Positions 3,367 through 20,215 of a DNA stretch of 64,000 nucleotides are shown here, piece after piece. The stretch is from a virus (Duplodnaviria; Caudoviricetes). The notes beneath the pieces were generated by a model. The model did not search any database and was not told where the DNA came from. It saw only the letters and a program-made list of their open reading frames with translations. The stretch lies in the IMG/VR virus record IMGVR_UViG_3300046167_000724; one strand, written 5' to 3'. The first letter of the stretch is position 1. Each line of letters opens with the position of its first letter. A program made the translations under genes and the position numbers.

Positions 3367-3443
3367 CCGATTGATTACTATGTAAATATAGGCAAAATAG
3401 TTGACATAAAAAAACTTTAGGTCAACTATTTTCAAACTATTTT
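3367..3443 (-). promoter_or_regulatory. Conserved ~77-bp early element, copy 1
   Basis: Minus strand aaaatagtttgaaaatagttgacctaaagtttttttatgtcaactattttgcctatatttacatagtaatcaatcgg; perfect 12-bp inverted repeat. Confidence 0.85.
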
Positions 3444-3845
3444 ACAGGGATAGGTCCGTCAGGAAGGGTGAAACTGTTTAAGTGCTCTTGGAAAACCTCA
3501 GGGCTCTCTTCAAACTCAAACTTGCTGAGGTCACCGTTGCCGATGATAGGAGCAAATCCGTAACGAGCCGCGCCGAACATGCCAACCTCATCGAATCCCA
3601 ATAGGGTATACATCTCACCGTCTTCAGTCTTCGCTACAAGCTCACAGCCGGCAGGAATACCACCGCGGTAGCCTTGCATATAGATAGGAAGGAACTCAAA
3701 GCCGATAAGGTCTGCTCGGACCCCATGCTTGCGCAGTGTCTTTTGGAAATTCACCAGGCATGCCCTTGAATGAGAATTCTTTACCGTTTTGTTTAGCAAT
3801 GAAGATAGCCTCGTTCATTAACTGAGTTGGAATTTGTACTTTCAT
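3437..3845 (-). pseudogene. Early hypothetical gene (135 aa restored) with one +1 frameshift
   Basis: ATG at 3845 behind element copy 2 (MKVQIPTQ...AQAW) joins the track ORF (VRADLIGF...PVK) if one base of the C4 run at 3721-3724 is removed. Confidence 0.6.
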
Positions 3846-3867
3846 AAGTTGTTCTTTGTGGGCAGTG

Positions 3868-3945
3868 CCCGATTGATTACATAGTAAATATAGGCAAAAT
3901 AGTTGACATAAAAAAGTTTTTAGCCAACTATTTTCAAATTATTTT
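3868..3945 (-). promoter_or_regulatory. Conserved early element, copy 2
   Basis: Near-identical to copy 1. Confidence 0.85.
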
Positions 3946-4327
3946 ACTGCAACTGAATGTGCACCTAAACTACCTTTCCAAATTGGAGCGCCTTCATATA
4001 CACGTGAGGTCAACTTAAATTCAAAACGACGTGAGTGGCCAACTTCAGGATTCTCTTCAGCAATATCAATGATCTCGTATGCTTCAGCAACATATGTCGC
4101 AACCTTCTCACCATGTAAGATACCCGATACTGTTACAGGGTAAACCTTTTTCAAAGGCTTCTATTAATGCAGCCTCTTCTTCTTTATAGAAGTACCATGC
4201 CCGGGCAATACACCCTTTAAGGCTACGACCAGGTGAATTCACCTTTAGTGTTATAGCTACGATTGACACTAACGAAAATGTTAACACCTTCGTTAAACTT
4301 GTTTGGATTGTAAATAACTTTACTCAT
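3939..4327 (-). pseudogene. Early hypothetical gene (128 aa restored) with two +1 frameshifts
   Basis: ATG at 4327 behind element copy 3; frame restored by removing one base at 4232-4233 and one at 4142-4144 (MSKVIYNPNK...EFTGRSLKG...EKGYPVTVSG...VAVK). Confidence 0.55.
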
Positions 4328-4349
4328 GATTATTTCTTTAGTAGGTTTC

Positions 4350-4421
4350 CCCGATTGATTACATATGTAATATAGGCAATTCCGGCGACATAAAAAAACT
4401 TTTAGGCAATTATTTTCAAAA
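4350..4421 (-). promoter_or_regulatory. Conserved early element, copy 3
   Basis: gaaaataattgcctaaaagttttttatgtc...gcctatattacatatgtaatcaatcggg pattern on the minus strand. Confidence 0.8.
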
Positions 4422-4461
4422 TAAAATGCAAGTAAGTACCTTATATTATATTACAGAACTG

Positions 4462-4539
4462 AAAAAAGTTTCAAAAAAGTTTGCCTTTTATTTTTTTATG
4501 TCAACTATTTTGCCTATATTTACTATGTAATCAATCGGG
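4462..4539 (+). promoter_or_regulatory. Conserved early element, copy 4 (divergent from copy 3)
   Basis: tttttttatgtcaactattttgcctatatttactatgtaatcaatcggg. Confidence 0.85.
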
Positions 4540-4565
4540 AATCACTCCCACTAAAAGAAAATCAT

Positions 4566-4883
4566 ATGACTAATAACGAACTTTGTGAACTGCTTGCCCA
4601 CGGAAACCTTCAAGAGGCTAAACCTATTATTGAAGACCGCAAGCAAATGCCTGAAAGTCGTCTTCTTATAATTCGTGAGATGTTAAGTGACTATCCACAT
4701 GTCTATATCGAACACGAACCAATGAGTGAAAGTAATTGGTACTACATATGGCGTAAAGAGAATATCAAAGGACCACACGATTGGAACCGTAGTGATTGCT
4801 TAATGCAGTTCTATTGGAAAGCTGGTAGCTATAACGCTGAAGGTGTTCACAATCTATACGACGAATGGGGCACAGCCCTTTAA
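4566..4883 (+). CDS. Early hypothetical protein
   Basis: ORF directly downstream of element copy 4; A-rich leader. Confidence 0.7.
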   Translation: MTNNELCELLAHGNLQEAKPIIEDRKQMPESRLLIIREMLSDYPHVYIEHEPMSESNWYYIWRKENIKGPHDWNRSDCLMQFYWKAGSYNAEGVHNLYDEWGTAL

Positions 4884-4959
4884 AATAATTTGAAAATAAA
4901 TGGCTAAAAACTTTTTTATGTCGTTTATTTTGCCTATATTTACTATGTAATCAATGGGG
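4882..4959 (+). promoter_or_regulatory. Conserved early element, copy 5
   Basis: aaaataatttgaaaataaatggctaaaaacttttttatgtcgtttattttgcctatatttactatgtaatcaatgggg. Confidence 0.85.
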
Positions 4960-4983
4960 ATCACCCTGGAAATTAAAAATATT

Positions 4984-5199
4984 ATGAATAAAAGAAACCG
5001 TCATCCCAATTACGTCAATGGCTACGAAGAGAAGATTGGCTACTGGCTTTACAAGGTCAACCAAGCTGTTGAGCAAGGTAGTGCTGAGAATCTCGAGTAT
5101 GCTAACCAGCGTCTTGTGTACTTCTTACAACGCCAGGAGACCTGGAAGAAAGAGACTGGCAACTTAAATGAGTATAAAATCAAAACTATCTACGGGTAA
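4984..5199 (+). CDS. Early hypothetical protein (start revised to ATG 4984)
   Basis: The track start lies inside the element; the ATG after aaaaatatt fits better. Confidence 0.65.
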   Translation: MNKRNRHPNYVNGYEEKIGYWLYKVNQAVEQGSAENLEYANQRLVYFLQRQETWKKETGNLNEYKIKTIYG

Positions 5200-5438
5200 T
5201 GAACAAAGAATTATTAGCAATCGAAGAGGAGCTTAACCAAATCGTGGTTAACCTAAGGCTAGAGAGCCTATACGACGAACCAGTTGGTGGATACTTACTT
5301 AATGCAGGTAGCCCAGCAGCGGACTTCTTATTAGAGTCTACTCCAAGTGAGCGTGAATTCATCCTTCATAAATTGGCACCTGAGCTAATAGTAGAAGATG
5401 TATATGAAGGTAATCATATAATTCTAAATCTTAAATAA
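5199..5438 (+). CDS. Early hypothetical protein
   Basis: TAATG stop/start coupling. Confidence 0.65.
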   Translation: MNKELLAIEEELNQIVVNLRLESLYDEPVGGYLLNAGSPAADFLLESTPSEREFILHKLAPELIVEDVYEGNHIILNLK

Positions 5439-5441
5439 ATT

Positions 5442-5759
5442 ATGGCATTATTAAAAAATAACAAAGGAGAGTACAACTACCAGTTTAACTGGGTTGATGA
5501 GAACTACAGCGTATGTGGATTCAACAGCGTATGGGCTACTAACAAGCGTGAGGCCCTTAAGAAGGCTAAAGCTATGGAGACCGAAGCACATTGGGCACTA
5601 TACGACGGTAACAAGTATGTAACGGTACCTGAGGAGGTTATAGGCGAGGGCCATTGCTTCCGTATGAAAGGTATGTATGTTCAAGTGGAATCTATGTATA
5701 AGGCCACTGCAGAGCAACGTGACCGTATGGACGAGATTGGCTGGATGATGACGAACTAA
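5442..5759 (+). CDS. Early hypothetical protein
   Basis: ORF in operon, A-rich leader. Confidence 0.65.
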   Translation: MALLKNNKGEYNYQFNWVDENYSVCGFNSVWATNKREALKKAKAMETEAHWALYDGNKYVTVPEEVIGEGHCFRMKGMYVQVESMYKATAEQRDRMDEIGWMMTN

Positions 5760-5827
5760 AATTGTTAGTAACTATTAGGCTAAAAGCTTTTTTATATCAA
5801 CTATTTTGCCTATATTTATAGTATAAT
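5758..5827 (+). promoter_or_regulatory. Conserved early element, copy 6
   Basis: ggctaaaagcttttttatatcaactattttgcctatatttatagtataat. Confidence 0.8.
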
Positions 5828-5842
5828 AAAAGAGAAAGCAAT

Positions 5843-6151
5843 ATGAACATTAAAGAACAAATCGAAAACTGGATTCCAGTAGCCCAGGCTAAATGTAACA
5901 GCTATTACTCAGAACAGTGGCAATCACAAGCTCCCGAGCTCACTATCAAATATGGACGTAAGTATGCCAAGATTATGGATGATGGCTCAACATGGGGCTT
6001 CATAGCCTTAACAGATGATCCTAGTAAAGGACAAGTTACAGGGGACCTTTTAAAGCCGGCTTCGTGGGCAACACCCACAAGACACTCGAGAGGTAACATA
6101 TTAAACGGTACAGCAGTGTACGATCAGTACGGACCAGCTTACTTAAAATAA
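5843..6151 (+). CDS. Conserved phage early hypothetical protein
   Basis: KYAKI...WGFI...GDLLKPASWATP...RGNI motif, recalled from small early proteins of large phages. Confidence 0.7.
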   Translation: MNIKEQIENWIPVAQAKCNSYYSEQWQSQAPELTIKYGRKYAKIMDDGSTWGFIALTDDPSKGQVTGDLLKPASWATPTRHSRGNILNGTAVYDQYGPAYLK

Positions 6152-6220
6152 TTTGAAAATAAATGACTAAAAGCTTTTTTATGTCAATTATTTTGCCTAT
6201 ATTTACTATGTAATCAATCG
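6145..6220 (+). promoter_or_regulatory. Conserved early element, copy 7
   Basis: aaaataatttgaaaataaatgactaaaagcttttttatgtcaattattttgcctatatttactatgtaatcaatcg. Confidence 0.85.
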
Positions 6221-6228
6221 TAATAAAT

Positions 6229-6465
6229 ATGAACTATATCAAATCATTCATCAATCGTAACCAGGGTCTCACAACCTTAATGGCTACCTTAATCATTTTA
6301 GCAACTGGGTGTATTCTATTGCCTATTGCAGTAACCCTAGCATGTAAGGCTCTCTTATACATGATTAACCAACCAGCTAACTCATTATACATTATAGGTG
6401 CCTACCTATTTGGTATATTAAGTAATGAGCTTGCAGGTGCGCTTGATAAAAAAGTTTCAAAATAA
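6229..6465 (+). CDS. Small membrane protein (two hydrophobic segments)
   Basis: LTTLMATLIILATGCILLPIAV and LYIIGAYLFGIL. Confidence 0.6.
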   Translation: MNYIKSFINRNQGLTTLMATLIILATGCILLPIAVTLACKALLYMINQPANSLYIIGAYLFGILSNELAGALDKKVSK

Positions 6466-6526
6466 TTGACTAAAAGTTTTTTTATGTCAATCTTTTTGCC
6501 TATATTTACTATGTAATCAATCGGGG
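6448..6526 (+). promoter_or_regulatory. Conserved early element, copy 8
   Basis: aaaataattgactaaaagtttttttatgtcaatctttttgcctatatttactatgtaatcaatcgggg. Confidence 0.85.
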
Positions 6527-6551
6527 AAACCCACTAAACAAATAATCGCTT

Positions 6552-6968
6552 ATGGCAACTATCAAAGAATTCAACAAAAGCAACCTCAACAGCCTTCGTC
6601 AAGACATGAACGCAGCACTTGCTAAACTAGAAAAGCAGTACGGTATTCAAATCAATGTAGGTAATGCAAGATTTAGTGACAATGAAGTTACTTTCAAAAC
6701 TAAATGTAACACTATCGGTGAAGGTGGAAAAGCCCAAACTAAAGAAGCCCAAAACTGGAAGCTATATGCAGAGCTTAATGGTGTAAGCCAATTCTCTATC
6801 GGTGACCGTATCGCCATCCAAGGTAAAATCTTCTCTATCGAAGGCTGGAACACACGTGCTAAGAAAGCCCCAGTAATGATTAAAGAAGTTGGCTCAAACA
6901 AAACCTTTAAATGTAGCGTACGCACTATAGCAGGTAAACTCCCTATGGTCAAAGAAACCATTAAATAA
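6552..6968 (+). CDS. Early hypothetical protein
   Basis: ORF downstream of element copy 8. Confidence 0.7.
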   Translation: MATIKEFNKSNLNSLRQDMNAALAKLEKQYGIQINVGNARFSDNEVTFKTKCNTIGEGGKAQTKEAQNWKLYAELNGVSQFSIGDRIAIQGKIFSIEGWNTRAKKAPVMIKEVGSNKTFKCSVRTIAGKLPMVKETIK

Positions 6969-6982
6969 ACAACCCCCACAGA

Positions 6983-7011
6983 AAGCCCTATATAAAGCCT
7001 ATATAGGGCTT
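6983..7011. other. Perfect 12-bp hairpin aagccctatata-aagcc-tatatagggctt
   Basis: Inverted repeat read directly; no clear U-tract. Confidence 0.75.
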
Positions 7012-7048
7012 CCCATAAACAACCAATAATTAAAGCAATATATAAACC

Positions 7049-7204
7049 ATGAGTAAAACATTTGTATTCACACTAGAAAGAGACAACGGGTATACTTATA
7101 CGTATGAAGGGACATTCGAATCCCTAGCCCGACACATCGCAGCGCAAGATAGCCCAATTAAGGTTAACGGCGATAAGACAGCTTTCAACACTAAAGAGGC
7201 TTAA
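7049..7204 (+). CDS. Small hypothetical protein (51 aa, not in ORF track)
   Basis: MSKTFVFTLERDNGYTYTYEGTFESLARHIAAQDSPIKVNGDKTAFNTKEA; A-rich leader. Confidence 0.5.
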   Translation: MSKTFVFTLERDNGYTYTYEGTFESLARHIAAQDSPIKVNGDKTAFNTKEA

Positions 7205-7838
7205 AGGCCCAATCCCCCAATTAAGGGAATGTCAACCCCCCACCCACATGTGCCAATGCGCATACTCAAGGGCTCCGGGGGCAAGTCCCCAATTTATAAA
7301 TTTTTGTGTGCAAGGGTTAGGGTACCACATGACAACTAATAATAAGCAATAGGTGATAAAGAATGTGCAATATGCTAATTAACTATCACACCCCATGAAA
7401 GCTTAAAATTACCCTTGTAGGTAAATGAACCCAAGCAACGCTAATAGGAGACCCCCGATACTTAGAGCCTAGGGTTTCCCTGGAAAAAACTTAGAAAAAA
7501 AGAAGTCGCCCCTACAAAAAAAATTGGGCGCCCCGTAAAAGGGGTAAAATACCCCCGAAGCGACCGTGAACTAACGGTCGATACCCATACGATACTAGGA
7601 GCTACTCAGAGTACCCATAAACTACTGGAACCCAGAGTGTTAGACAAATACCCTCCGGTAAGTCCTCTAACCATCTGAACGGCCAGGGGCCCCTTAAAAC
7701 AGGCGAAGCCAATTGAGTTCCAGACCGATACTAAAAGAATTAAAAGAACCCAGAGTACTCAAAGCACTCAGAGTAACTGCCAGACCCACAGTACGGCGTG
7801 AAGCCAGGTCAGTGTGCTTGCAAGGGCCGAGTGCCCCT

Positions 7839-7866
7839 GAAACAAAAAATAATTAACCCGTATAAT
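7839..7866 (+). promoter_or_regulatory. Class II promoter GAAAC-N17-TATAAT
   Basis: Motif recurs at 8668, 9966, 11151, 13193, 15165, 26252, 61210 and 61439, each upstream of a gene. Confidence 0.65.
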
Positions 7867-7907
7867 AAGGGTGTCCCAAAAGAGGCGACGCCGAAACTTA
7901 AAGTAGT

Positions 7908-8267
7908 ATGACAATAACACACGACAGTGATACCGGGCCGACACTAACAGGACCTATGAGTAGACAAGAGTTTTTAAAAACATTACAGACCCAGATAGGA
8001 CGTGTAGAGTTTATTGAAAGGAATAAGAGTAACAACCCGATACACCCTTATAGTAAACTCGGAGAGGGTTACATCATTATGCAACTGGGAGAGTTCTTCC
8101 CGGTACTATACGATAGTGTAAGAAACCCCGAGGCTTATATGTCAGCTACCGGTGGTTGGGGTATTGTAGTGGGCCGTCATAACGGTGCAGGGGATTTCTT
8201 TACGGTTCCTGTAAGTTGGGAGGGTGTGCTCTCGGTCATTGAAAGTAACTACAAGGCTCTCGGCTAA
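7908..8267 (+). CDS. Hypothetical protein
   Basis: ORF downstream of a class II promoter. Confidence 0.6.
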   Translation: MTITHDSDTGPTLTGPMSRQEFLKTLQTQIGRVEFIERNKSNNPIHPYSKLGEGYIIMQLGEFFPVLYDSVRNPEAYMSATGGWGIVVGRHNGAGDFFTVPVSWEGVLSVIESNYKALG

Positions 8268-8292
8268 GGGGGCCAATAATATTAGGCAAAAT

Positions 8293-8445
8293 ATGGATTG
8301 GTTTGAATCACTTGGTATGATGAATAAAATAGGCACTACAGTTATATTAGCGGCAATTGCATCTGTTACAGTTTGCATGGTAGTAGTATTAATTGATATA
8401 GTACAAAGCGGCTGGCGCTACTTAATGAATAAATTGAAAAAATAA
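8293..8445 (+). CDS. Small membrane protein (start revised to 8293)
   Basis: MDWFESLG...VILAAIASVTVCMVVVLI single transmembrane helix. Confidence 0.5.
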   Translation: MDWFESLGMMNKIGTTVILAAIASVTVCMVVVLIDIVQSGWRYLMNKLKK

Positions 8446-8623
8446 AAAATTAAAAAAATCAATTATTTATTTAGGGTACAAAAATTTCCCTATGCAGAAA
8501 ATCTTAAGGTTTATTTAAATATCGGTACATTGTGTGTAAATGTGGCGGAGTTAATTGAAAAATTAAAAAATTAAAAAAATCAATTATTTATTTGGTGGTC
8601 TAAAATTTCCCTTCGCTGAAATA
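8432..8623. repeat. Imperfect direct duplication of a ~70-bp AT-rich unit (8432-8500 and 8553-8623)
   Basis: aattgaaaaa(a/t)taaaaaattaaaaaaatcaattatttattt...aaaatttccct occurs twice. Confidence 0.8.
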
Positions 8624-8723
8624 ATTTTTTTTAATTTTAAAAACTTAAAGAATCGGTGGACTGAGATGAAACATTCTTTGTTTAATTAACTATAACTATA
8701 ATAGTAATAACAATAAACATAAT

Positions 8724-10687: not shown

Positions 10688-10690
10688 TCT

Positions 10691-11149
10691 ATGAAATTTA
10701 GGAGGCTTACAGATTCAGTGCAAATAAATCTAGGTGAATATTTAAAAAAATATATAGACGAAGTGGGTGCTGAAAATGTTAGACTTTATATTGGTTGTGA
10801 TAGCCAAAATAAAAAGTCATGGACAAGTTACGCAACTACGGTAGTTATACATATTGGCAACACGGGTTGTCATGTACTCTATCAACGTGAGCGTATATCA
10901 CCTAGAATAAATGACTTCTGGACCAGGCTATGGAGAGAAGTTGAACGTTCGGTTGAAGTTGCACTATACCTACAAGAATACAATATAATTGTAGACAATA
11001 TAGATTTAGACCTAAACTCAGACCCTAATATGAAATCACATAAGTTGGTTTCAGCAGCTCGTGGTTATGTTGAGTCATTAGGTATTAAGGCTAATATTAA
11101 ACCTGAATTATTACCAGCTATTTGCGCTGCTGATAATATAGTTAAATAA
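10691..11149 (+). CDS. RNase H-like protein (YkuK/DUF458 family)
   Basis: LYIGCDSQ, RLWREVERS, DLDLN and ICAAD acidic motifs. Confidence 0.75.
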   Translation: MKFRRLTDSVQINLGEYLKKYIDEVGAENVRLYIGCDSQNKKSWTSYATTVVIHIGNTGCHVLYQRERISPRINDFWTRLWREVERSVEVALYLQEYNIIVDNIDLDLNSDPNMKSHKLVSAARGYVESLGIKANIKPELLPAICAADNIVK

Positions 11150-13211: not shown

Positions 13212-13244
13212 TCATATAATAAGTGATTATAATAACAACACAAT

Positions 13245-14087
13245 ATGTTTAACGATACATTCAAAAAAATTATTAAAGATATCAAACAAGATGGTCAACT
13301 CTCTCAACCTCGCGATATGCAGGTTAGAGAGTTAACTATTGACCAGCGAGAGTTTGACCCTAAATTCACAATTGCAGATTTCAAATCACGCGCATTTAAT
13401 TACAAGTACTTTGCAGGCGAACTTGCGTGGTACCTAATGAAAGACCGTGACATTGATTACATCTCAAAGTTCTCAGGCTTCTGGAAACACATCACAAACC
13501 CAGACACTAACGAAATTAATTCAAACTATGGTTCACTAATTTTCAATGACCAACTACAATGGGTTATTGATTCACTTAAAGCTGATAAGAATACACGTCA
13601 AGCGATTGCATTCTTAAATCAACCTAAGTACCAATTTGAAGGTAATAAAGATTTCGTATGTACAATGTATCTTAATTTCTTTATTCGCAATAACAAGTTA
13701 AATATGAAAGTGCAAATGCGCTCAAATGATATCTTTTATGGATTGACATTTGATGCACCTTTCTTTTCTTTTGTATACCAGCATGTTCTTATGGAACTAC
13801 AGGTAAATTATCCAAATCTAGACTTTGGTACTTATTACCATTGTGCTGATAATATTCACTTCTATGAGCGTCACTTTGAATTAGCTGATAAGATTTTAGA
13901 TGAAGGTCGATATGATATTAACCCAACAGAGGTTAGAGTTAAATTGCCGTTATTCAAAATAGAAAATGGTGAATGTATTATAACACACGTTGGCAATGAA
14001 TACATTAAAGAAGTAAACGCTTTAGTTGAAGCTGAAGCAACGCAAGAACAATATAAAGAATTATTATACAAATACGTACTAGCATAA
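13245..14087 (+). CDS. Thymidylate-synthase-superfamily enzyme, dCMP hydroxymethylase (T4 gp42)-like
   Basis: NSNYG, RQAI, KDFVCT, MRSNDIFYGLTFD, HFYERHF; Asp at the pyrimidine-specificity position. Confidence 0.7.
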   Translation: MFNDTFKKIIKDIKQDGQLSQPRDMQVRELTIDQREFDPKFTIADFKSRAFNYKYFAGELAWYLMKDRDIDYISKFSGFWKHITNPDTNEINSNYGSLIFNDQLQWVIDSLKADKNTRQAIAFLNQPKYQFEGNKDFVCTMYLNFFIRNNKLNMKVQMRSNDIFYGLTFDAPFFSFVYQHVLMELQVNYPNLDFGTYYHCADNIHFYERHFELADKILDEGRYDINPTEVRVKLPLFKIENGECIITHVGNEYIKEVNALVEAEATQEQYKELLYKYVLA

Positions 14088-14440
14088 TGGAACCAGAATT
14101 TTATACAGACAATTGGGAAGATGATAGTCATATCCCACGAATTGAAATAGAAGATTTTCAAACTATCAAGGATGTTGAATTAGAACTAGTAACTAACCAC
14201 GACGTATTTTATCGCAGAATTATAACATATGTAATTGACGTAATTGAGAATAAATTACCAGCCGACGAACCTCTTGCTATTTTAATAGATGAAAACGGCA
14301 TGGAGTATGATATGGACCTACCAGTTGATGGCTTTATTAAATCACTTACAAAATGCATGGAATATTTTACTACAATAGAAGAATATGAAACATGTACCCT
14401 AATTAAAGACTTAATTAAAATAACCGAACAAGGATTATAA
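14087..14440 (+). CDS. Acidic protein with C-terminal UvrB/C (UVR)-like motif
   Basis: KCMEYFTTIEEYETCTLIKDL; stop 1 nt upstream of the clpP start. Confidence 0.5.
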   Translation: MEPEFYTDNWEDDSHIPRIEIEDFQTIKDVELELVTNHDVFYRRIITYVIDVIENKLPADEPLAILIDENGMEYDMDLPVDGFIKSLTKCMEYFTTIEEYETCTLIKDLIKITEQGL

Positions 14441-14441
14441 T

Positions 14442-15107
14442 ATGAACTACGGAAACGAATTTAAAAAATACGCGATGAGTGACTTCAACCTCAGCTCATC
14501 AAACATGGACTACTACCAAAAGCAAATCGAAGGTTCTATGACACCTTACATTCTTGAAGAGCGTGAAATGAGAATGACACAGATGGATATCTTCTCTAGA
14601 TTGATGCGTGATCGCATTCTTTGGGTTGCAGGTCCTGTAAATGATAACATGTCAACTGTTGTACAGGCTCAACTTATGTTCTTAGACAACGCCAGTAAAG
14701 ATGACATTACGATGCACATTGATTCACCGGGTGGTTCTGTTAAATCAGGTCTATCAATGGTTGACGTTATGGAATACATCCCAACAGATATTCGCACGGT
14801 CAACACTGGAATGGCGGCTTCTATGGGCTCTGTGCTTTTAGGTGCGGGTACCAAAGGAAAGCGTGCATCACTAAGACACTCTCGTACTATGTTACACCAA
14901 TCTTCTGGTGGGTTCTCTGGAAACATTCAAGATGCTGAAGTAGATTGGAAAGAATGGCAAAAGATTAACAAAGAATTGTTTATCTTATTAGGTGAGTATT
15001 GTGGTAAGACTGCTGCAAAAGTTGCAAAGGATGCTACTCGTGATTTCTGGTTGACCGCAGATGAAGCGTTGAATTACGGTATTATTGATGAAGTTATTAG
15101 ACGATAA
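14442..15107 (+). CDS. clpP: ATP-dependent Clp protease proteolytic subunit
   Basis: MTPYILEER, DIFSRLM, IDSPGGSV, catalytic GMAASMG, MLHQ and RDFW; Bacteroidota-type N-terminus. Confidence 0.95.
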   Translation: MNYGNEFKKYAMSDFNLSSSNMDYYQKQIEGSMTPYILEEREMRMTQMDIFSRLMRDRILWVAGPVNDNMSTVVQAQLMFLDNASKDDITMHIDSPGGSVKSGLSMVDVMEYIPTDIRTVNTGMAASMGSVLLGAGTKGKRASLRHSRTMLHQSSGGFSGNIQDAEVDWKEWQKINKELFILLGEYCGKTAAKVAKDATRDFWLTADEALNYGIIDEVIRR

Positions 15108-15515: not shown

Positions 15516-16405
15516 TGAGTAAGGGTCCGTTTTCATATAGCGGAAATAAAACCAGGATTTACAATGCGTATCTTAAACCTATTATGCGAAAGTACAATAG
15601 GATTCATGAACCCTTTGTAGGTTCTGGTGTTTGTATGTACAATGCTAATAATGGTGGAATGTCAACTGATGTTGACCCCGCCGTTGTTGCAATGCACAAC
15701 GCGCTTTTAGACAGCGAATTACCCAATAGAATGCAAGCCTGTTACAATAAGTTTTTTGCAACAGGTCATACTAAAGAATCGTACAACACCTTGCGAGAAG
15801 CGTTTAATACTGACTGGATGCTTAATGGTATCACACCTAAAAATGTACACCAGCTTTATGTCTTAGCCCAAATCTCTTTCAATTCGCTTATAAGGTTTAG
15901 TAAAAATGGTTTCAATGTACCGTTTGGTGAAAAGCCATTAGATATAGAGCGTATCAAATTGCACGTTACAATATACAAGACTAAAGATATTCAAGTTACA
16001 CTATCAGGATATAATACTATAGACCTTAATAAGGTTGACAAAGATAGAGATATTATTTATCTAGACCCGCCTTATATTGCAAGTAAGTTTCAATATGGTG
16101 GTTGGGGTAAAAAAGATGAAAAGGAACTCTTGGATTTTATAACTAAATTAGACCAGCTTGGTTATAACTTTATTTTATCAAACACGTTTTCACATAAGGG
16201 TGAGATTAACACAGCACTTATAGACTGGGCAAAAGACTACAATGCATACTTGATTGACATGAGCTACAACGCGTGGTCTGCTCGTGTTACTTCTGTAGAG
16301 CGAGAAGACCAAACCGTTGAAGTACTTATTACAAACTTACAAGACGGTTTTAATGATCTTGCAAACGCGAATGCAAATAAATTATCAACAACTGAACTTT
16401 TTTAG
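15515..16405 (+). CDS. dam: DNA N6-adenine methyltransferase (Dam/D12 class)
   Basis: PFSYSGNK, EPFVGSG, RFSKNGFNVPFG, IYLDPPY. Confidence 0.85.
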   Translation: MSKGPFSYSGNKTRIYNAYLKPIMRKYNRIHEPFVGSGVCMYNANNGGMSTDVDPAVVAMHNALLDSELPNRMQACYNKFFATGHTKESYNTLREAFNTDWMLNGITPKNVHQLYVLAQISFNSLIRFSKNGFNVPFGEKPLDIERIKLHVTIYKTKDIQVTLSGYNTIDLNKVDKDRDIIYLDPPYIASKFQYGGWGKKDEKELLDFITKLDQLGYNFILSNTFSHKGEINTALIDWAKDYNAYLIDMSYNAWSARVTSVEREDQTVEVLITNLQDGFNDLANANANKLSTTELF

Positions 16406-16410
16406 TTTTA

Positions 16411-16446
16411 TATTTTTTTATGTCAAATCTTTTTTGTATATTTACA
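16411..16446 (+). promoter_or_regulatory. Degenerate early element, copy 9
   Basis: ttttttatgtcaaatcttttttgtatatttac. Confidence 0.55.
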
Positions 16447-16448
16447 AC

Positions 16449-16592
16449 ATGTCAGAAGAACTAATGGTAATGCAGGTACAGTACGACGATGCTGTCAATG
16501 CTGGAAATACTAAAGAAGCTAAAGAGCTTCTTAAAATTATTAATGGTATGCAACACACACATACTAAAGGTAAATATAAATACAATGATTAA
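16449..16592 (+). CDS. Small hypothetical protein (start revised to 16449)
   Basis: MSEELMVMQVQYDDAV... directly after copy 9. Confidence 0.5.
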   Translation: MSEELMVMQVQYDDAVNAGNTKEAKELLKIINGMQHTHTKGKYKYND

Positions 16593-16995
16593 AATAACGG
16601 GTAAACGTACACATAAAACTGCTATTAACAAAAAGGTTAAAGCGATTGCAGATGCACTTGGTATTACATGTGATGTTAACGTTTATTTTATGGACCATAC
16701 GTCACCTGATAAGTATGGGTTTGCCGCTGAAATAATGGGTAGTCAATACGTTTGTATTTTTAAAGACTGTCCAGAAGATAAACTCGGTGACGTTATTTCA
16801 CATGAAATGGTACATATATTACAAACTTTAAGAGGTGATCTTAAACATGATTATATGAATCGTACTTTTTATTGGAAGGGTGAAAAATGGGACAATGAAA
16901 GATGTGAGTCTGTTAACTATTATGATAGACCTTGGGAAGCTGAAGCAAAAAAACTTGAAAAAAAGTTAGCCGAAAACTTTTTTATGTCAAATTAA
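16585..16995 (+). CDS. Zinc metallopeptidase-like protein (HEXXH; start revised to 16585)
   Basis: VISHEMVHILQ and YYDRPWEAEA. Confidence 0.7.
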   Translation: MIKITGKRTHKTAINKKVKAIADALGITCDVNVYFMDHTSPDKYGFAAEIMGSQYVCIFKDCPEDKLGDVISHEMVHILQTLRGDLKHDYMNRTFYWKGEKWDNERCESVNYYDRPWEAEAKKLEKKLAENFFMSN

Positions 16996-17020
16996 TTGCC
17001 TATATTTACATAGTAATCAG
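16947..17020 (+). promoter_or_regulatory. Conserved early element, copy 10 (overlaps the 3' end of the upstream CDS)
   Basis: gaaaactttttatgtcaaattaattgcctatatttacatagtaatca-type match. Confidence 0.8.
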
Positions 17021-17054
17021 TTGAGAATATATAATTAAAATAAATCAAAAGACA

Positions 17055-17294
17055 ATGGCAAAGAAAAAGATTTCAGACGCAGACTTAATCGACGCACTAG
17101 AAGGACTAGATACGACGTATGACCGTCTAAGTACAGATGGTCAAAAGACAATGGATGCATTTTTTACAAAAGCAGAAAAGTCAATTAATCAAAGAGACTT
17201 AGATAAGTTTATTAAAGACTTAGAGTATGATGTACAACGCATGAATTCAGACGGTGTATATTACTATGAAATTCTTAAAAACGCAAAGTTATAA
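17055..17294 (+). CDS. Hypothetical protein
   Basis: ORF downstream of copy 10. Confidence 0.6.
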   Translation: MAKKKISDADLIDALEGLDTTYDRLSTDGQKTMDAFFTKAEKSINQRDLDKFIKDLEYDVQRMNSDGVYYYEILKNAKL

Positions 17295-17298
17295 TATT

Positions 17299-17318
17299 AG
17301 GACCTTAGGGTCCTTTTA
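17299..17318 (+). terminator. Short intrinsic terminator
   Basis: aggacc-ttag-ggtcct followed by ttt. Confidence 0.55.
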
Positions 17319-17321
17319 TTA

Positions 17322-17396
17322 TTTTGAAAATAATTTGAAAATAATTGGCTAAAAGTTTTTTTATGTCGTAAACTTTGCCTATATTTATAGTATAAC
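17322..17396 (+). promoter_or_regulatory. Conserved early element, copy 11
   Basis: ttttgaaaataatttgaaaataattggctaaaagtttttttatgtcgtaaactttgcctatatttatagtataac. Confidence 0.85.
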
Positions 17397-17435
17397 AATG
17401 AGACAATGCTGTCTCTCTTAATTTAATTAACAAAC

Positions 17436-18569
17436 ATGGTAACATTATCAGACAACGCAATCCAATCGCGCAAGTTGGAAACATTAAACGCACAAGCACT
17501 ACGCAGAACAGTAGCAGCTCGTGAAATTGAAGTTATTGACGAGAAGACAATCTTCTACAATGGCTCTCAAATCAGAATTACTAGTGAGGCTTTTAAATCA
17601 CTAATGAAAATGACGGGAATGAGTCAAACATTCATTAAGAAGTTTGAACAACTCTTCAACCCTAAAGCTAAGGCGCAATTCATTAATACAATGAAAAACG
17701 CAATGGCTTCTAACGCAGGTAGTATGCCAAACATTACAATGGTACTTAATCCTGTTAACAAAGTAATTGTTGCATTCACAAAAGATGCTTCAGAACTTAT
17801 TTCTAACTCAAACTTTGTTGAGAATGCAGAACGTATTCTTAATGGTGGTAACTTTGGTGTTACAAACTGGACGACAGACCCAACTACGGGTATTGTAACT
17901 CTTAACGCCATTAAAGAAGGTGCAACATTCTCAGTTGCAGGTGATGAGAAAGATGTATTTACTGCGGGTATTACAATGAAGAACTCACCTATTACTGGAT
18001 TTCAAGTTTCACCTTACGTAAATCGTCTTTGGTGTACTAATGGTCTTACTACCGCACTCGCACAAGACAAGTACAATATGACAAACCTAAGTGAAAAATC
18101 GCTTACTCAATTCAACGAGTACATTCAAGGACTCACACGTCGCAACTTTGTGCCTGCTGAATTTAATGAATTAGTAAACAAAGCACGTAAAACACCGGCT
18201 TCTTTAAATGAGCTTAATCGTGCAACTAACGCAATTAAAAGTGCAGGTGCTGGTGATAGATCTGGACAGTGGATACCTCTTCACGAAAACCTACTTGAAT
18301 ACTCACGTGCAGGTATTGATACTAAAGATTTCAATAATGCAGAACTTAAGAATGCAGAATCTGACCAATCGGTTTGGAGTGTTGTAAATTCAATGACTCA
18401 CTTTGCGTCACATGGTGAAGACTTAGTTGATGGCTTTGAAAGTCACAAAGGTACTGACCTTATGGTTAGAGCTGGAAACTTATTAGGTCGTGCATGGGAC
18501 TTAGGTAATCGTGTTGCGTCACCTTTCAAAGGTTTGAATTCATACCAACATGGTGAAGTACTTAATTAA
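17436..18569 (+). CDS. DUF932-like protein
   Basis: RLWCTNGL motif preceded by GITMKNS; WSVVNSMTH in the C-terminal helical region. Confidence 0.55.
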   Translation: MVTLSDNAIQSRKLETLNAQALRRTVAAREIEVIDEKTIFYNGSQIRITSEAFKSLMKMTGMSQTFIKKFEQLFNPKAKAQFINTMKNAMASNAGSMPNITMVLNPVNKVIVAFTKDASELISNSNFVENAERILNGGNFGVTNWTTDPTTGIVTLNAIKEGATFSVAGDEKDVFTAGITMKNSPITGFQVSPYVNRLWCTNGLTTALAQDKYNMTNLSEKSLTQFNEYIQGLTRRNFVPAEFNELVNKARKTPASLNELNRATNAIKSAGAGDRSGQWIPLHENLLEYSRAGIDTKDFNNAELKNAESDQSVWSVVNSMTHFASHGEDLVDGFESHKGTDLMVRAGNLLGRAWDLGNRVASPFKGLNSYQHGEVLN

Positions 18570-18593
18570 TATAGTGCTATCATAATATAATAT

Positions 18594-18622
18594 AAGGGGT
18601 GTGCGGAAGTATACCCCTTTTT
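18594..18622 (+). terminator. Intrinsic terminator with GGAA tetraloop
   Basis: aaggggtgtgc-ggaa-gtatacccctt followed by ttt. Confidence 0.8.
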
Positions 18623-18627
18623 ATTTT

Positions 18628-18690
18628 AAAATAATTGGCTAAAAGTTTTTTTATGTCGTTTATTTTGCCTATATTTACATAGTAATCAAA
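18628..18690 (+). promoter_or_regulatory. Conserved early element, copy 12
   Basis: aaaataattggctaaaagtttttttatgtcgtttattttgcctatatttacatagtaatcaa. Confidence 0.85.
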
Positions 18691-18718
18691 TGGAAGTATT
18701 AACCTTAAATTTTATATT

Positions 18719-18952
18719 ATGCCTATTACTTATTTAGACCGTAAACCCTTTTTCAACGGAATGCAAATCGACGACATCGAAATCGATGGAGTAGACACTC
18801 GTGACTATCCTGATTTTTGCGATGCTTACATTAACAACTTTTGGCTTGTTGATGGCGATGAGGTTCGTGAAGCTACTGAGGCTGAACTCGATGATATTAA
18901 TGATAACGAACAAGACTTCGTTTACGAACAAGTCTGGGACTCTTTATTCTAA
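18719..18952 (+). CDS. Conserved acidic phage hypothetical protein
   Basis: IEIDGVDTRDYPDFCDAYI...ELDDIN motif recalled from many phages. Confidence 0.7.
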   Translation: MPITYLDRKPFFNGMQIDDIEIDGVDTRDYPDFCDAYINNFWLVDGDEVREATEAELDDINDNEQDFVYEQVWDSLF

Positions 18953-19104
18953 TGGCTAAAAAGAAACCAAATAAAGTTGACGGTTATAGTGAACGTCATT
19001 TAAGTCAACTTATTCGTCGGCGCATGATTCAAAAAGATCATGGAGATGACAATAAGTATTCGCGTAAAGATAAACATAAAAAAGATTATGGCAAAGAAGA
19101 GTAA
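18952..19104 (+). CDS. Small basic protein (50 aa, not in track), weakly ArfA-like
   Basis: MAKKKPNKVDGYSERHLSQLIRRRMIQKDHGDDNKYSRKDKHKKDYGKEE; TAATG coupling. Confidence 0.5.
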   Translation: MAKKKPNKVDGYSERHLSQLIRRRMIQKDHGDDNKYSRKDKHKKDYGKEE

Positions 19105-19282
19105 AAGTGTAAAGGATGCTGTTTGTGCACGTTGTATAGGTAGCTTCAAGTTTAAAGAGCTTAATCGCGTTTATATACAAATGCATAGGCATGACCCTAA
19201 TAGTGGTTATTATGGTGTTTATGTGTGTGATAAATGTGAACCTAAGTTTGAATTAGATAGACGCGAACCAACACAGGAATAA
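19088..19282 (+). CDS. Small Zn-finger protein (start revised to 19088)
   Basis: CARC ... CDKC. Confidence 0.55.
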   Translation: MAKKSKSVKDAVCARCIGSFKFKELNRVYIQMHRHDPNSGYYGVYVCDKCEPKFELDRREPTQE

Positions 19283-19283
19283 T

Positions 19284-19487
19284 ATGCCACATAAGAAAAA
19301 GCGTACAACCAGTGTTGAAGTATTTATACACGAGGGTCAATCTTATACAACAATACACAAAGACGATAATTCAGCTTGGATTATAGAATACGATATTAAA
19401 AAAAGATTTGCAAGTGGTGGCGTAAAAAAAGTAGACAAAAGTTTTTTATTGTCAAAAAAAATCACTATATTAGCTAGTAATACTTAA
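19284..19487 (+). CDS. Hypothetical protein
   Basis: ORF in operon. Confidence 0.55.
   Translation: MPHKKKRTTSVEVFIHEGQSYTTIHKDDNSAWIIEYDIKKRFASGGVKKVDKSFLLSKKITILASNT
19424..19481 (+). promoter_or_regulatory. Degenerate early element, copy 13
   Basis: gacaaaagttttttattgtcaaaaaaaatcactatattagctagtaat. Confidence 0.5.
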
Positions 19488-19495
19488 TAACAGAT

Positions 19496-19957
19496 ATGAA
19501 ACAAACTATTTATATTGACCTTGACGGGGTCGTTGTTGATATTGAAAGATATATCAATGAAACATTTAGCCCAGATTATATTAAAAAATATGGCATTGGT
19601 ACTATAATCGATATGCATCCTCAAATATTCTATGATGCAAAACCTATGCCAGGTGCAATCGCTGCATTTCGTGAACTTGCTGACAAGCATGATGTTTATA
19701 TTCTATCAACTGCACCTTGGGATAATCCAGAATCTTGGAAAGCAAAGCGTATTTGGGTTGAAAAGCATTTGGGCGATTCAGCATACAAAAGATTAATACT
19801 ATCACATAATAAAGGTTTACTTAGAGGTGACTTCTTAGTTGATGACCGTATTAAAAATGGTGTCGCAGAATTTGAAGGAACTCATATTCACTTTGGTACA
19901 CATGACATTCCAAACTGGGATAGCGTTTTAGAACTATTTAAAATGATTCAAGAGTAA
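19496..19957 (+). CDS. 5'(3')-deoxyribonucleotidase (HAD, NT5C family)
   Basis: YIDLDGVV, KPMPGA, LSTAPW, KRLILSH, GDFLVDDR. Confidence 0.9.
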   Translation: MKQTIYIDLDGVVVDIERYINETFSPDYIKKYGIGTIIDMHPQIFYDAKPMPGAIAAFRELADKHDVYILSTAPWDNPESWKAKRIWVEKHLGDSAYKRLILSHNKGLLRGDFLVDDRIKNGVAEFEGTHIHFGTHDIPNWDSVLELFKMIQE

Positions 19958-20181
19958 TGACAATTGTAGTATTCAGAAAAACCAAAAGATCCCAACCTCA
20001 AATGGCAGTGTTTACCAAAAGTAGCATTACCGTTGATGTTGTATTAGATAGTGCTAAACGTAAACCACCAATTCCACATAGATGGATTATTGAAGACGTA
20101 GGTGTAGGTGGTGAAGGTTTAATAGGGTATTACAAAAAAAAGTACAAAAATATTAAAGTTTTTATTGATAAAACTTTTTAA
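19957..20181 (+). CDS. Hypothetical protein
   Basis: TAATG coupling. Confidence 0.55.
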   Translation: MTIVVFRKTKRSQPQMAVFTKSSITVDVVLDSAKRKPPIPHRWIIEDVGVGGEGLIGYYKKKYKNIKVFIDKTF

Positions 20182-20215
20182 TGTCAATTATTTTGCCTAT
20201 ATTAGTATAGTAATT
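20161..20215 (+). promoter_or_regulatory. Early element, copy 14 (partial)
   Basis: aaaactttttaatgtcaattattttgcctatattagtatagtaatt. Confidence 0.7.

What the first reader, a model, noticed from the sequence alone, without database searches (positions are those of the whole stretch)
3367..20215. A ~77-bp element repeated 14 times, heading each early gene cassette (candidate promoter plus shuffling cassette system)
Seen: approximate consensus AAAATAATTTGAAAATAATTGGCTAAAAGTTTTTTTATGTCAACTATTTTGCCTATATTTACTATGTAATCAATCGGG. Copies start at 3367, 3868, 4350 (minus) and 4462, 4882, 5758, 6145, 6448, 16411, 16947, 17322, 18628, 19424, 20161 (plus), always co-oriented with a downstream cassette of one to a few genes. 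Established: TATATTTA resembles the Bacteroidota -7 box TAnnTTTG, and T4-type PeSL elements act as promoters and as recombination points that shuffle early gene modules. Inference: conservation extends well beyond a promoter, so the element may also be a homology site for excising, amplifying or swapping accessory cassettes, an integron-like array built from promoters.
Basis: partly seen in the sequence, partly recalled or inferred. Interest (0 to 1): 0.8.

Follow-up and report, generated by a model that had tools for sequence, protein, structure and literature searches.

The report
Phage early-promoter cassettes that shuffle genes
A roughly 80-bp sequence repeated 14 times in this uncultured marine T4-like giant phage is most likely its early promoter, and comparison with related phages shows that small genes have been gained, lost, swapped and flipped exactly at these repeats, as with the 'PeSL' promoter cassettes of T4-type coliphages.

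Summary
There are exactly 14 copies at the stated places: 3 on the minus strand and 11 on the plus strand. None lies in the 44-kb structural module, and 0.14 core matches are expected by chance.

Each copy lies 0-44 nt upstream of a co-oriented gene. The same architecture recurs in at least 117 viral-contig stretches and 23 times, all on one strand, in the cultured Chryseobacterium phage MA9V-2. It is at chance level in 596 Gb of bacterial genomes. The architecture is an A-rich box, a T-run with an invariant ATGTC, then TATATTTA where the Bacteroidota -7 box sits.

In two distant relatives the element directly precedes an ECF-type sigma gene. The window also carries two other promoter-like classes. 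I therefore read the element as the early promoter, probably used by host RNA polymerase. No RNA data support this.

Divergent blocks between the window and its nearest relative start or stop at the elements (p about 0.004). About eight cassette arrangements occur in related contigs: whole-unit indels, allele replacements, and two genes that changed strand and promoter.

It is a PeSL-like system, not integron-like, since no recombinase was found. The promoter consensus differs from PeSLs and the stem-loop sits in the leader. Junction reads could not be tested. Other readers of this scan noted the same motif elsewhere in this genome.

The parts
3363..3445 (-). Element copy heading gene A (343 aa, RecA/DnaB-like P-loop ATPase, 2328-3359). 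Short 19-nt leader, no hairpin.
   Evidence: nhmmer E=1e-20; Pfam and PHROG hits of gene A; identity to the relative drops from about 100% to about 72% at its upstream edge
3862..3947 (-). Element copy heading gene B (128 aa in relatives, 3437-3845). Leader hairpin GGGC-ACT-GCCC. Junction of the whole-cassette indel (gene C, 200 aa, present in the G-type relative).
4341..4425 (-). Element copy with the GCCGGAAT spacer variant, heading gene D (128 aa in relatives, 3946-4326). Left member of the divergent pair.
4459..4546 (+). Element copy heading gene E (105 aa, 4566-4883). Right member of the divergent pair. The divergent allele block begins at its leader hairpin.
4880..4966 (+). Element copy heading genes F (about 71 aa, window-type only), G (79 aa) and H (105 aa). 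The gene F indel starts right after its leader hairpin.
5756..5839 (+). Element copy (ATATC variant) heading gene I (102 aa).
6143..6222 (+). Element copy heading gene J (78 aa, hydrophobic). Short leader.
6447..6534 (+). Element copy heading gene K (138 aa). Leader hairpin GGG-GAAA-CCC.
16384..16461 (+). Core-only copy between the Dam methylase gene and a 47-aa ORF. The ATG at 16449 falls on the predicted +1, so the mRNA would be leaderless. The 34-bp core is deleted in the G-type relative but present in the more distant L111.
16945..17030 (+). Element copy heading a 79-aa gene. It marks the right end of a 1.6-kb divergent block. Its core is absent at the orthologous site of L111.
17326..17409 (+). 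Element copy heading a 377-aa gene. It is preceded by a terminator-like hairpin (17299-17314) and has the leader hairpin GAGACA-ATGC-TGTCTC.
18623..18698 (+). Element copy heading the 77/50/80/67-aa genes. It is preceded by a terminator-like hairpin (18594-18619). A divergent allele block starts 8 nt after it.
19411..19479 (+). Weak core-only copy inside the 3' end of the 67-aa gene, heading the NT5C-like 153-aa gene.
20161..20228 (+). Weak core-only copy overlapping the end of the 74-aa gene, heading the 60- and 145-aa genes.

Best explanation
The element is the early-class promoter unit of a marine T4-like jumbo phage that most likely infects a member of the Bacteroidota.

Anatomy. Positions are relative to a predicted start 7 nt after TATATT. 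The TSS is inferred, not mapped.
- About -67 to -38: phased A-rich boxes (AAAATAAtTtG twice, then CTAAAAG).
- -37 to -30: a T-run, lying where the Bacteroidota -33 TTTG would lie.
- -29 to -25: an invariant ATGTC box with no host counterpart.
- An 8-nt variable spacer, then TGCC.
- -12 to -5: TATATTTA, which matches the -7 box TAnnTTTG at 7 of 8 positions.
- +1: a purine.
- A conserved initial transcribed sequence GTAATCAATCGG. In the long-leader copies a small GGG-loop-CCC stem-loop follows.
- An A-rich leader without a Shine-Dalgarno sequence, and the ATG.

Transcription (inferred). Host RNA polymerase with its primary sigma fires these promoters at the start of infection. It may be helped by an injected or very early phage factor that reads the ATGTC box. 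The genes expressed are small ORFan takeover genes and, in relatives, an ECF-type sigma. That sigma would then switch on a second class (AAAC-N16-18-TATAAT). A third class (GATATATAA) serves the late genes.

Recombination (the rearrangements are shown by comparison; the mechanism is inferred). The roughly 80-bp copies are near-identical and occur in both orientations. They therefore act as portable homology for the phage's recombination machinery. Exchanges between them delete or insert promoter-plus-gene units, replace alleles, and move genes to the other strand and promoter. The arrays thus behave as hyperplastic regions like the PeSL arrays of T4-type phages.
For: Promoter.
- There are 14 copies, all co-oriented with genes starting 0-44 nt downstream, and none in the baseplate/tail module.
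- At 71 independent sites in other viral contigs, 63 have an ORF starting within 44 nt downstream, against 6 of 71 in the opposite direction.
- In two copies the ATG falls exactly on the predicted +1.
- The extended consensus is conserved across distant phages.
- MA9V-2, a cultured Chryseobacterium phage, has 23 forward, 0 reverse and 0 control matches. Of the four sites in the 13-kb stretch I inspected, three lie 24-32 nt before annotated starts.

Phage-specific, not a host housekeeping promoter.
- The pattern hits at least 117 viral stretches, many multi-copy. It gives only 52 single scattered hits in 596 Gb of bacterial genomes, none extending beyond the pattern.

Early class.
- The element sits about 20-25 nt (G005) and about 30 nt (G004) from the end of the -7 box to the ATG of a 199-aa sigma gene (region 2 E about 1e-13).
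- Two other motif classes head the Clp/ThyA genes and the structural genes.

Bacteroidota host.
- Structural proteins match Tenacibaculum, Chryseobacterium, Flavobacterium and Prevotella phages.
- Only 9 of 78 genes have a Shine-Dalgarno-like 4-mer, and A is favoured at -3 (compare PMC6847099).
- The array in Flavobacterium phage immuto has the same scaffold, but with GTTG where this element has its T-run.

Shuffling.
- The G-type relative has one extra element-plus-200-aa-gene unit, with the junction inside an element.
- Divergent allele blocks 3379-3867 and 4540-4878 are bounded on both sides by elements, and three more on one side. Ten of 42 breakpoints lie within 25 nt of an element, p about 0.004.
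- About eight arrangements were found in metagenome contigs, including genes D and E exchanged between strands and promoters, and I-J replaced by X or by nothing.
- Key arrangements recur in independent assemblies.

T4-like.
- A gp23-type capsid gene is present in the near relative and two others.
- The PeSL precedent is PMC2839356 and PMC4122927.
Against: - No transcript 5' ends, no expression timing and no polymerase assay are available. 'Early' and 'host sigma' are inferences.
- The -33 position carries TTTT rather than TTTG, and the last base of the -7 box is A rather than G. The match to the host consensus is therefore imperfect.
- The invariant ATGTC box is unexplained by host sigma recognition.
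- Any conserved intergenic sequence would tend to mark mosaic boundaries, and genes are exchanged at gene borders anyway. Enrichment at the elements therefore does not prove that they cause the exchanges. Several boundaries lie elsewhere (5216, 8426, 15359, 18948).
- Assemblers can mis-join metagenomic contigs at 80-bp repeats, and the window itself shows mixed-population consensus errors. Arrangements seen once could therefore be chimeras.
- Only two close lineages were available for the fine breakpoint analysis.
Confidence: 0.72

Rival explanations
1. The elements are only promoters. Cassette differences reflect ordinary gene flux at gene borders in a hyperplastic region, and the elements mark borders because every small gene happens to have one. 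They do not mediate the recombination.
For: Several mosaic boundaries lie at gene borders without an element (5216, 8426, 18948) or inside genes (15359, 13685-13925). The upstream boxes are conserved across distant phages, so their conservation needs no recombination role.
Against: The whole-unit indel has its junction inside the element: the upstream half matches one flanking copy and the downstream gene matches the other. Genes D and E are re-associated with the opposite promoter cores, which needs breakpoints between core and gene. Breakpoints are enriched at the elements (p about 0.004). T4-type recombination needs under 50 bp of homology, and PeSL circles were shown experimentally (PMC2839356).
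Confidence: 0.17
2. The element is a middle-type or factor-dependent promoter. The T-run/ATGTC box at about -37 to -25 would be the site of a phage-encoded activator (as the MotA box at -30 is in T4) or of a phage sigma, and host polymerase alone would not use it.
For: ATGTC is invariant, phage-specific and sits where T4's MotA box sits. The canonical -33 G is missing. PmSL elements built on Mot promoters exist in phage nt-1 (PMC4122927).
Against: The element drives the phage sigma gene in two relatives, and no other candidate early class was seen ahead of it. The other two classes head replication/enzyme genes and structural genes. Element-driven genes are the small ORFans typical of immediate-early regions.
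Confidence: 0.15
3. It is an active, site-specific cassette system (integron-like). The GGG-loop-CCC stem-loop would be a structured recombination site cut and joined by a dedicated enzyme.
For: The stem is kept in 12 sequence variants with three types of compensating fourth pair and variable loops. Several breakpoints fall at the hairpin. Arbiol et al. speculated the same for the GGGG...CCCC stems of PeSLs.
Against: No tyrosine or serine recombinase is found in 125 kb of the near relative. Short-leader copies lack the hairpin yet sit in the same arrays. The hairpin is simply where homology between copies ends, so breakpoints there are expected. Each cassette carries its own promoter, unlike integron cassettes.
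Confidence: 0.05
4. The apparent rearrangements are assembly artefacts: metagenome assemblers mis-joined co-occurring strains at the 80-bp repeats.
For: The window carries one-base insertions exactly at sites where two natural alleles differ, a sign of a mixed-population consensus. The repeats are as long as typical assembly k-mers.
Against: The G-type order was assembled identically in at least four independent data sets, and the window type in two. The B-D junction without gene C is seen in the window, L215 and L218. The D/E exchange is seen in L225 and L229, and X in place of I-J in L214 and L229. These come from different samples and show different divergence.
Confidence: 0.05

Closest known systems
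PeSL (promoter-early stem-loop) cassettes of T4-type phages RB49/phi1, T4/PST and KVP40/nt-1 (Arbiol et al. 2010, PMC2839356; Comeau et al. 2014, PMC4122927)
   Same: The phage is T4-like. The repeats are composite regulatory elements 50-90 bp long, with an AT-rich upstream part, an early-type promoter and a G-rich stem-loop. They are clustered between ORFans in hyperplastic regions and scarce in structural modules. Insertions, deletions and replacements between close relatives have breakpoints in or beside the repeats.
   Different: The promoter is not sigma-70 type (TTGACA-N17-TATAAT). It has a T-run/ATGTC box plus TATATTTA on Bacteroidota -33/-7 spacing. The conserved GGG...CCC stem-loop lies downstream of the promoter in the 5' leader and has no U-tract. 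In PeSLs the stem-loop is a terminator just upstream of the promoter. Here an upstream terminator is present in only 2 of 14 copies, though some distant relatives fuse a hairpin to the T-run. There is no Shine-Dalgarno sequence. Mini-circles have not been shown.
T4 early promoters (extended consensus from about -55 to +7 with phased A-tracts, read by host sigma-70 polymerase)
   Same: It is a strong, unusually long and uniform promoter consensus, specific to the phage and used for immediate-early genes. It has phased A-rich upstream boxes.
   Different: The host phylum and the consensus differ. This statement about T4 rests on my own knowledge and was not re-read here.
Bacteroidota primary-sigma promoters (-33 TTTG / -7 TAnnTTTG)
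   Same: TATATTTA matches the -7 box at 7 of 8 positions. The T-run occupies the -33 position with about 20 nt between the boxes. Flavobacterium phage immuto has the same scaffold with a canonical GTTG at that position.
   Different: Both conserved G residues are absent. An invariant ATGTC box and a GAAAATAA box are added. The full pattern is not found in bacterial genomes above chance.
Integron cassette arrays
   Same: Both are arrays of small accessory genes whose number and order vary between relatives at a repeated site.
   Different: No integrase was found. Each cassette has its own promoter rather than one common promoter. The repeats are promoters rather than attC sites. Exchange looks homologous.

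Membership tests
PeSL cassettes of T4-like phages | Carried by a T4-like myovirus | tested here: met
   A gp23-type major capsid gene is present in the near relative G002 (E=2.7e-45) and in G003 and G004. A gp6-type baseplate wedge is present in the window.
PeSL cassettes of T4-like phages | Repeated composite element concentrated among ORFans in hyperplastic regions and scarce in structural modules | tested here: met
   All 14 copies lie in 3.3-6.6 kb and 16.4-20.3 kb and none in 20.3-64 kb. In the relative, 14 copies lie in the first 18.5 kb and 3 in the next 107 kb. The cassette genes have almost no family hits.
PeSL cassettes of T4-like phages | Contains a sigma-70-type early promoter (-35 and -10 boxes, 17-nt spacer) | tested here: not met
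   The sigma-70 consensus scan is at chance (78 found, 71 expected) and does not pick out the elements. With TATATT as the -10 box, the -35 position is TTTTTT. The element instead fits Bacteroidota -33/-7 spacing.
PeSL cassettes of T4-like phages | Stem-loop terminator immediately upstream of the promoter | tested here: not met
   Only 2 of 14 copies (17326, 18623) have a terminator-like hairpin just upstream. The conserved GGG-loop-CCC stem is downstream, in the leader. Some distant relatives do have a hairpin fused to the T-run.
PeSL cassettes of T4-like phages | Indels and replacements between close relatives have breakpoints at the elements | tested here: met
PeSL cassettes of T4-like phages | Recombination between neighbouring elements yields mini-circles or deletions detectable in infected cells or virions | not testable with these tools
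All holding runs are kept as contigs only.
Bacteroidota primary-sigma promoter | -7 box TAnnTTTG about 5 nt upstream of the start | tested here: inconclusive
   TATATTTA matches 7 of 8 positions and the final G is A or absent in all copies. Two copies place an ATG at the predicted +1. No TSS data.
Bacteroidota primary-sigma promoter | -33 box TTTG, 19-21 nt upstream of the -7 box | tested here: inconclusive
   TTTT is at the right distance, with no G. The homologous array in Flavobacterium phage immuto has GTTG there.
Integron | Tyrosine-recombinase integrase with attI/attC sites | tested here: not met
   PF00589 and PF00239 give no match in G001 or G002. This covers 125 kb, about 41% of the estimated genome.

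The most novel reading that the evidence does not exclude
The invariant T-run/ATGTC box, which replaces the canonical -33 TTG and is confined to phages, is the docking site of a phage protein delivered with the DNA or made at once. That protein redirects Bacteroidota RNA polymerase to phage early promoters, a new kind of early sigma appropriation. The conserved GGG-loop-CCC leader stem is a second functional module, acting either as an mRNA 5' stabiliser or as a structure-specific recombination hotspot that actively drives cassette exchange.
Probability: 0.15. Interest if true: 0.8.

Novelty: new variant of a known kind. Interest (0 to 1): 0.58.

Why it matters
Transcription signals of phages that infect Bacteroidota are almost uncharted. 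In the library I searched I found no paper describing this motif, including the genome papers of the cultured phages that carry it.

The element gives a ready genome-wide marker for immediate-early genes in a widespread group of marine and soil T4-like jumbo phages. It also suggests a three-step promoter cascade running through a phage ECF sigma.

It extends the PeSL idea, that promoters double as portable recombination sites, from coliphages and vibriophages to a distant branch with a different host transcription apparatus. Natural population data show indels, replacements and strand switches.

Because MA9V-2 is cultured, both the promoter and the shuffling can be tested directly.

Tried and rejected
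Nothing can be concluded from it.
- megablast of 3-21 kb against cultured phages: no match.
- Canonical Bacteroidota promoter scan (TTG-N18-20-TAnnTTTG): a few hits inside genes and none at intergenic sites.
- Sigma-70 consensus scan: chance level.
- Rfam on 1-22 kb: nothing at E<=0.1.
- Searches for other genomic contexts of the lineage-specific cassette genes C (200 aa) and F (81 aa) in IMG/VR: only the known relative for C, none for F.
- RNAalifold on the leader hairpins failed because the ungapped alignment put the 3' arms out of register. I counted the stems by script instead.
- A conserved hairpin pairing GGCTAAAA with TTTTGCC across the core was considered. It was dropped because most copies do not keep it.
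- A MITE or transposon reading was dropped: there are no terminal inverted repeats and no target duplications at the 34-bp core indel.
- The weak sigma region-2 hit in G002 (92.7 kb) looks like a gp55-type late factor rather than the ECF sigma. The 3 kb after the G002 copy at 122.4 kb holds no sigma.

Full report
**Observation**

The repeat is real and complete as described. A direct-repeat search recovers the family. The core TTTTTnATGTC-N8-TnnnTATATT gives exactly the 14 reported sites, against 0.14 expected by chance. A profile built from the copies finds the same 14 and nothing else below E=1 in 64 kb.

Three copies face left (3363-3445, 3862-3947, 4341-4425). Eleven face right (4459 to 6534, and 16384 to 20228). 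The two groups diverge at about 4440. None lies in the 44 kb of baseplate and tail genes that follow. Mean pairwise identity over 79 nt is 0.67, or 0.75 for the 11 full copies.

**What the phage is**

The window has no close cultured relative. Its large structural proteins match Tenacibaculum, Chryseobacterium, Flavobacterium and Prevotella (Lak) phages, huge metagenomic phages and Sphingomonas phage PAU, at 25-42% identity.

A near relative exists as IMG/VR contigs G001 (72 kb) and G002 (125.5 kb). These are 99.8% identical to each other and 86-96% identical to the window. CheckV puts G002 at 41% complete, so the genome is about 300 kb. G002, G003 and G004 encode gp23-type capsid proteins, so the group is T4-like.

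Only 9 of 78 window genes have a Shine-Dalgarno-like 4-mer. Their upstream regions are A-rich and G-poor, with A favoured at -3. This is the pattern reported for Flavobacterium johnsoniae (PMC6847099, abstract seen). A Bacteroidota host is therefore likely, but it is inferred.

**Anatomy of the element**

I take TATATT as -12 to -7. The start at +1 is a prediction. The consensus then reads as follows:
- Two phased A-rich boxes plus CTAAAAG, at about -67 to -38.
- A T-run at -37 to -30.
- An invariant ATGTC at -29 to -25.
- Eight variable bases that come in a few types, then TGCC.
- TATATTTA at -12 to -5.
- A purine at +1.
- GTAATCAATCGG.

Leaders fall into two classes. The short class is 18-20 nt with no structure. 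The long class is 35-44 nt and usually has a short GC stem-loop at about +11 to +24. In two copies (window 16414 and G002 65759) the ATG falls exactly on the predicted +1, as in leaderless mRNAs.

Across the window and related contigs the stem occurs in 12 sequence variants. All keep GGG...CCC. Seven add a fourth pair, of three different Watson-Crick types, and loops are 3-7 nt. This is modest covariation in favour of a real stem.

**Is it a promoter?**

Direct RNA evidence is lacking, so the case is positional and comparative.
- Every window copy is co-oriented with a gene that starts 0-44 nt downstream.
- A scan of IMG/VR with the core pattern returned at least 117 stretches, many multi-copy. 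Most extend to 50-85 nt of the profile.
- At 71 non-redundant sites outside the near relative, 63 have an ORF of at least 40 codons starting within 44 nt downstream. The peak is at 20-24 nt. Only 6 of 71 do so in the opposite direction.
- Positions outside the searched pattern are also conserved in these distant contigs: a GAAAATAA box, extra T residues, and TA after TATATT.
- The same scan of 596 Gb of bacterial and archaeal genomes gave only 52 single hits, scattered over unrelated taxa. None extends beyond the pattern. The architecture is therefore specific to phages and is not a host housekeeping promoter.
- The cultured Chryseobacterium phage MA9V-2 has 23 matches on its forward strand, none on the reverse strand and none for the control pattern. 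Of the four sites in the 13-kb stretch I inspected, three are intergenic, 24-32 nt before annotated starts.
- Flavobacterium phage immuto has a tandem array of small genes, each behind a related element. That element has the same A-rich box, the same TTTTGCC-TATATTTA end and a conserved leader. It carries a canonical GTTG exactly where the present element has its T-run.

This last point places the element on the Bacteroidota -33/-7 scaffold, with the -33 G lost and an ATGTC box gained.

**Temporal class**

In two distant relatives the element sits just upstream of a 199-aa ECF-type sigma gene. The gap from the end of the -7 box to the ATG is about 30 nt in G004 and about 20-25 nt in G005. Region 2 scores E about 1e-13 and region 4 about 1e-4.

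The window holds two other intergenic motif classes:
- AAAC-N16-18-TATAAT lies ahead of the ClpB-like, ThyA-like, DUF6378/Dam and some other genes. There are 9 matches against 3.1 expected, 7 of them upstream of plus-strand genes.
- GATATATAA lies just ahead of structural genes. There are 6 matches, all on the plus strand, against 2.1 expected.

Earlier unchecked notes of this scan describe the same three classes elsewhere in this genome. They say that the first class also heads the phage's own ECF sigma and that the second heads gp55. I confirmed the sigma link only in relatives.

The simplest cascade is as follows. The element is read by host polymerase and gives the phage ECF sigma. That sigma reads the AAAC/TATAAT class, which gives the late factor. 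The late factor reads GATATATAA. This cascade is inference. A factor-dependent reading of the ATGTC box, analogous to MotA, is the main rival.

**Shuffling: the close pair**

Aligning the window with G002 shows a sharp mosaic.
- Gene A and genes D and G-K are 95-100% identical.
- Gene B is about 72% identical and gene E about 55% (44% at the protein level). Each of these blocks starts and stops at an element.
- G002 has one extra unit, an element plus the 200-aa gene C. The window's copy at 3862-3947 has the upstream half of one flanking G002 copy and the downstream gene of the other. This is the product expected from an exchange between two direct copies.
- The window has an extra gene F, which begins right after the leader hairpin of the 4880 copy.
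- The 34-bp core at 16406-16439 is missing in G002 but present in a more distant relative, L111. L111 in turn lacks the core at the 16945 site.
- A two-state segmentation finds 42 identity breakpoints between 2.2 and 22 kb. Ten are within 25 nt of an element (p about 0.004 by permutation). Among the seven large divergent blocks, 7 of 14 ends are at elements.

**Shuffling: the population**

A metagenome scan with the lineage-specific part of the element gave 17 contigs. Mapping the cassette proteins on them gives these orders, where || is the divergence point and | is an element:

| Source | Order |
|---|---|
| Window | A B D \|\| E F G H \| I \| J \| K |
| G-type | A B C D \|\| E G H \| I \| J \| K |
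| L215 | A B D \|\| E G H \| I \| J |
| L218 | B D |
| L225 | B E \|\| D \| G H \| I \| J |
| L229 | A B E \|\| D \| F G H \| X \| K |
| L217 | C \| F.. \|\| E \| Y \| K, with F on the other strand |
| L214 | G H \| X \| K |
| L222 | G H \| K |

In L225 and L229 the two promoters at the divergence point keep their identity. The GCCGGAAT-spacer type stays on the left and the CAACTATT type on the right. The genes behind them are exchanged, so the breakpoints lie between promoter core and gene.

The main arrangements recur in independent assemblies:
- G-type in at least four data sets.
- Window type in L213.
- B-D without C in three contigs.
- The D/E exchange in two contigs.
- X in two contigs.

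Assembly chimeras at 80-bp repeats remain a caveat for arrangements seen once.

**Comparison with known systems**

The closest precedent is the PeSL element of T4-type phages. PeSLs are composite early-promoter and stem-loop cassettes, concentrated in hyperplastic regions and found at indel and replacement breakpoints. They were shown by inverse PCR to form mini-circles (PMC2839356, PMC4122927).

The present elements share the phage type, the genomic setting and the comparative signature. They differ in two defining details. The promoter is not sigma-70 type. The conserved G-rich stem lies in the leader and is not a terminator upstream of the promoter. Only 2 of 14 copies have an upstream terminator, although some distant relatives fuse a hairpin to the T-run. 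I therefore call it a PeSL-like variant, not a member in the strict sense.

It is not integron-like in mechanism. No tyrosine or serine recombinase is found in 125 kb of the near relative, and each cassette has its own promoter.

**What could not be done**

Junction reads, circles and RNA starts therefore remain untested. Seventeen seawater metagenomes from 13 studies hold at least half of the sampled words of the 2300-7200 stretch, and three metatranscriptomes hold small shares, so the data for such tests exist.

**Verdict**

The promoter reading is very likely, and the early, host-polymerase reading is likely. Comparative data show element-associated cassette exchange, most simply explained by homologous recombination between the repeats. 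It is a new variant of a known kind and of moderate to good interest.

Noticed in passing
window about 4136, about 4231 and near 3690: Genes D (3946-4326, minus) and B (3437-3845, minus) are frameshifted in the window but intact in relatives. At both gene D sites the window reads 'AG' where an independent window-type contig (L213) has A and the G-type has G. These look like consensus errors at polymorphic sites of a mixed population, not pseudogenes. The gene B frameshift was not inspected in this way.
   Followed up: yes
window 7205-7907: A 703-bp stretch with no ORF that is unusually G+C- and C-rich. It is 96-100% identical in the relative and has no Rfam match. Its function is unknown; it could encode RNA.
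   Followed up: partly
window 8427-8519 and 8548-8640: Two tandem copies of a 93-nt A/T-rich repeat (78% identical) in a 278-bp non-coding gap. They lie at the right edge of a divergent block (8153-8426).
   Followed up: no
window 7840, 11152, 13194, 15166, 26253, 61211, 61440 (plus strand): A second promoter-like class, AAAC-N16-18-TATAAT, ahead of the ClpB-like, ThyA-like, DUF6378/Dam and other genes. It resembles ECF-sigma promoters (my own knowledge) and may be read by the phage ECF sigma.
   Followed up: partly
window 9859, 25300, 25525, 33084, 39873, 50883 (plus strand): A third motif, GATATATAA, lies directly ahead of structural and cargo genes. All six copies are on the coding strand. 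It is probably the late promoter, comparable to T4's TATAAATA.
   Followed up: partly
window 10019-15107: The phage encodes a SLOG/LOG-like protein, an RNaseH-like protein, a two-ring ClpB/ClpC-type AAA+ ATPase (669 aa), a thymidylate-synthase-like protein and ClpP. This amounts to a phage-borne Clp unfoldase and protease pair.
   Followed up: partly
L110:2868-3555 (G004) and L189:1343-2028 (G005): In two distant relatives the element directly precedes a 199-aa ECF-type sigma gene.
   Followed up: yes
L232 (Flavobacterium phage vB_FspM_immuto_2-6A, 68.0-71.1 kb): A cultured Flavobacterium phage has a tandem array of at least eight small genes, each behind a conserved element. The element has GTTG at -33, TATnTTTAG at -7 and the leader ATATCAATAATTAAAAC. 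This is a sister system with a canonical Bacteroidota promoter.
   Followed up: partly
window 25854-25935: Three or more tandem 24-nt repeats that encode an acidic Asp/Glu/Ser-rich stretch inside the 226-aa ORF 25554-26234.
   Followed up: no
window 1-780 versus L226, L228 and L201: Left of about 769 the window (a 251-aa plus-strand ORF, 19-774) differs from relatives. Relatives carry further minus-strand element-plus-gene units there, so this is another rearrangement at the edge of the array.
   Followed up: partly
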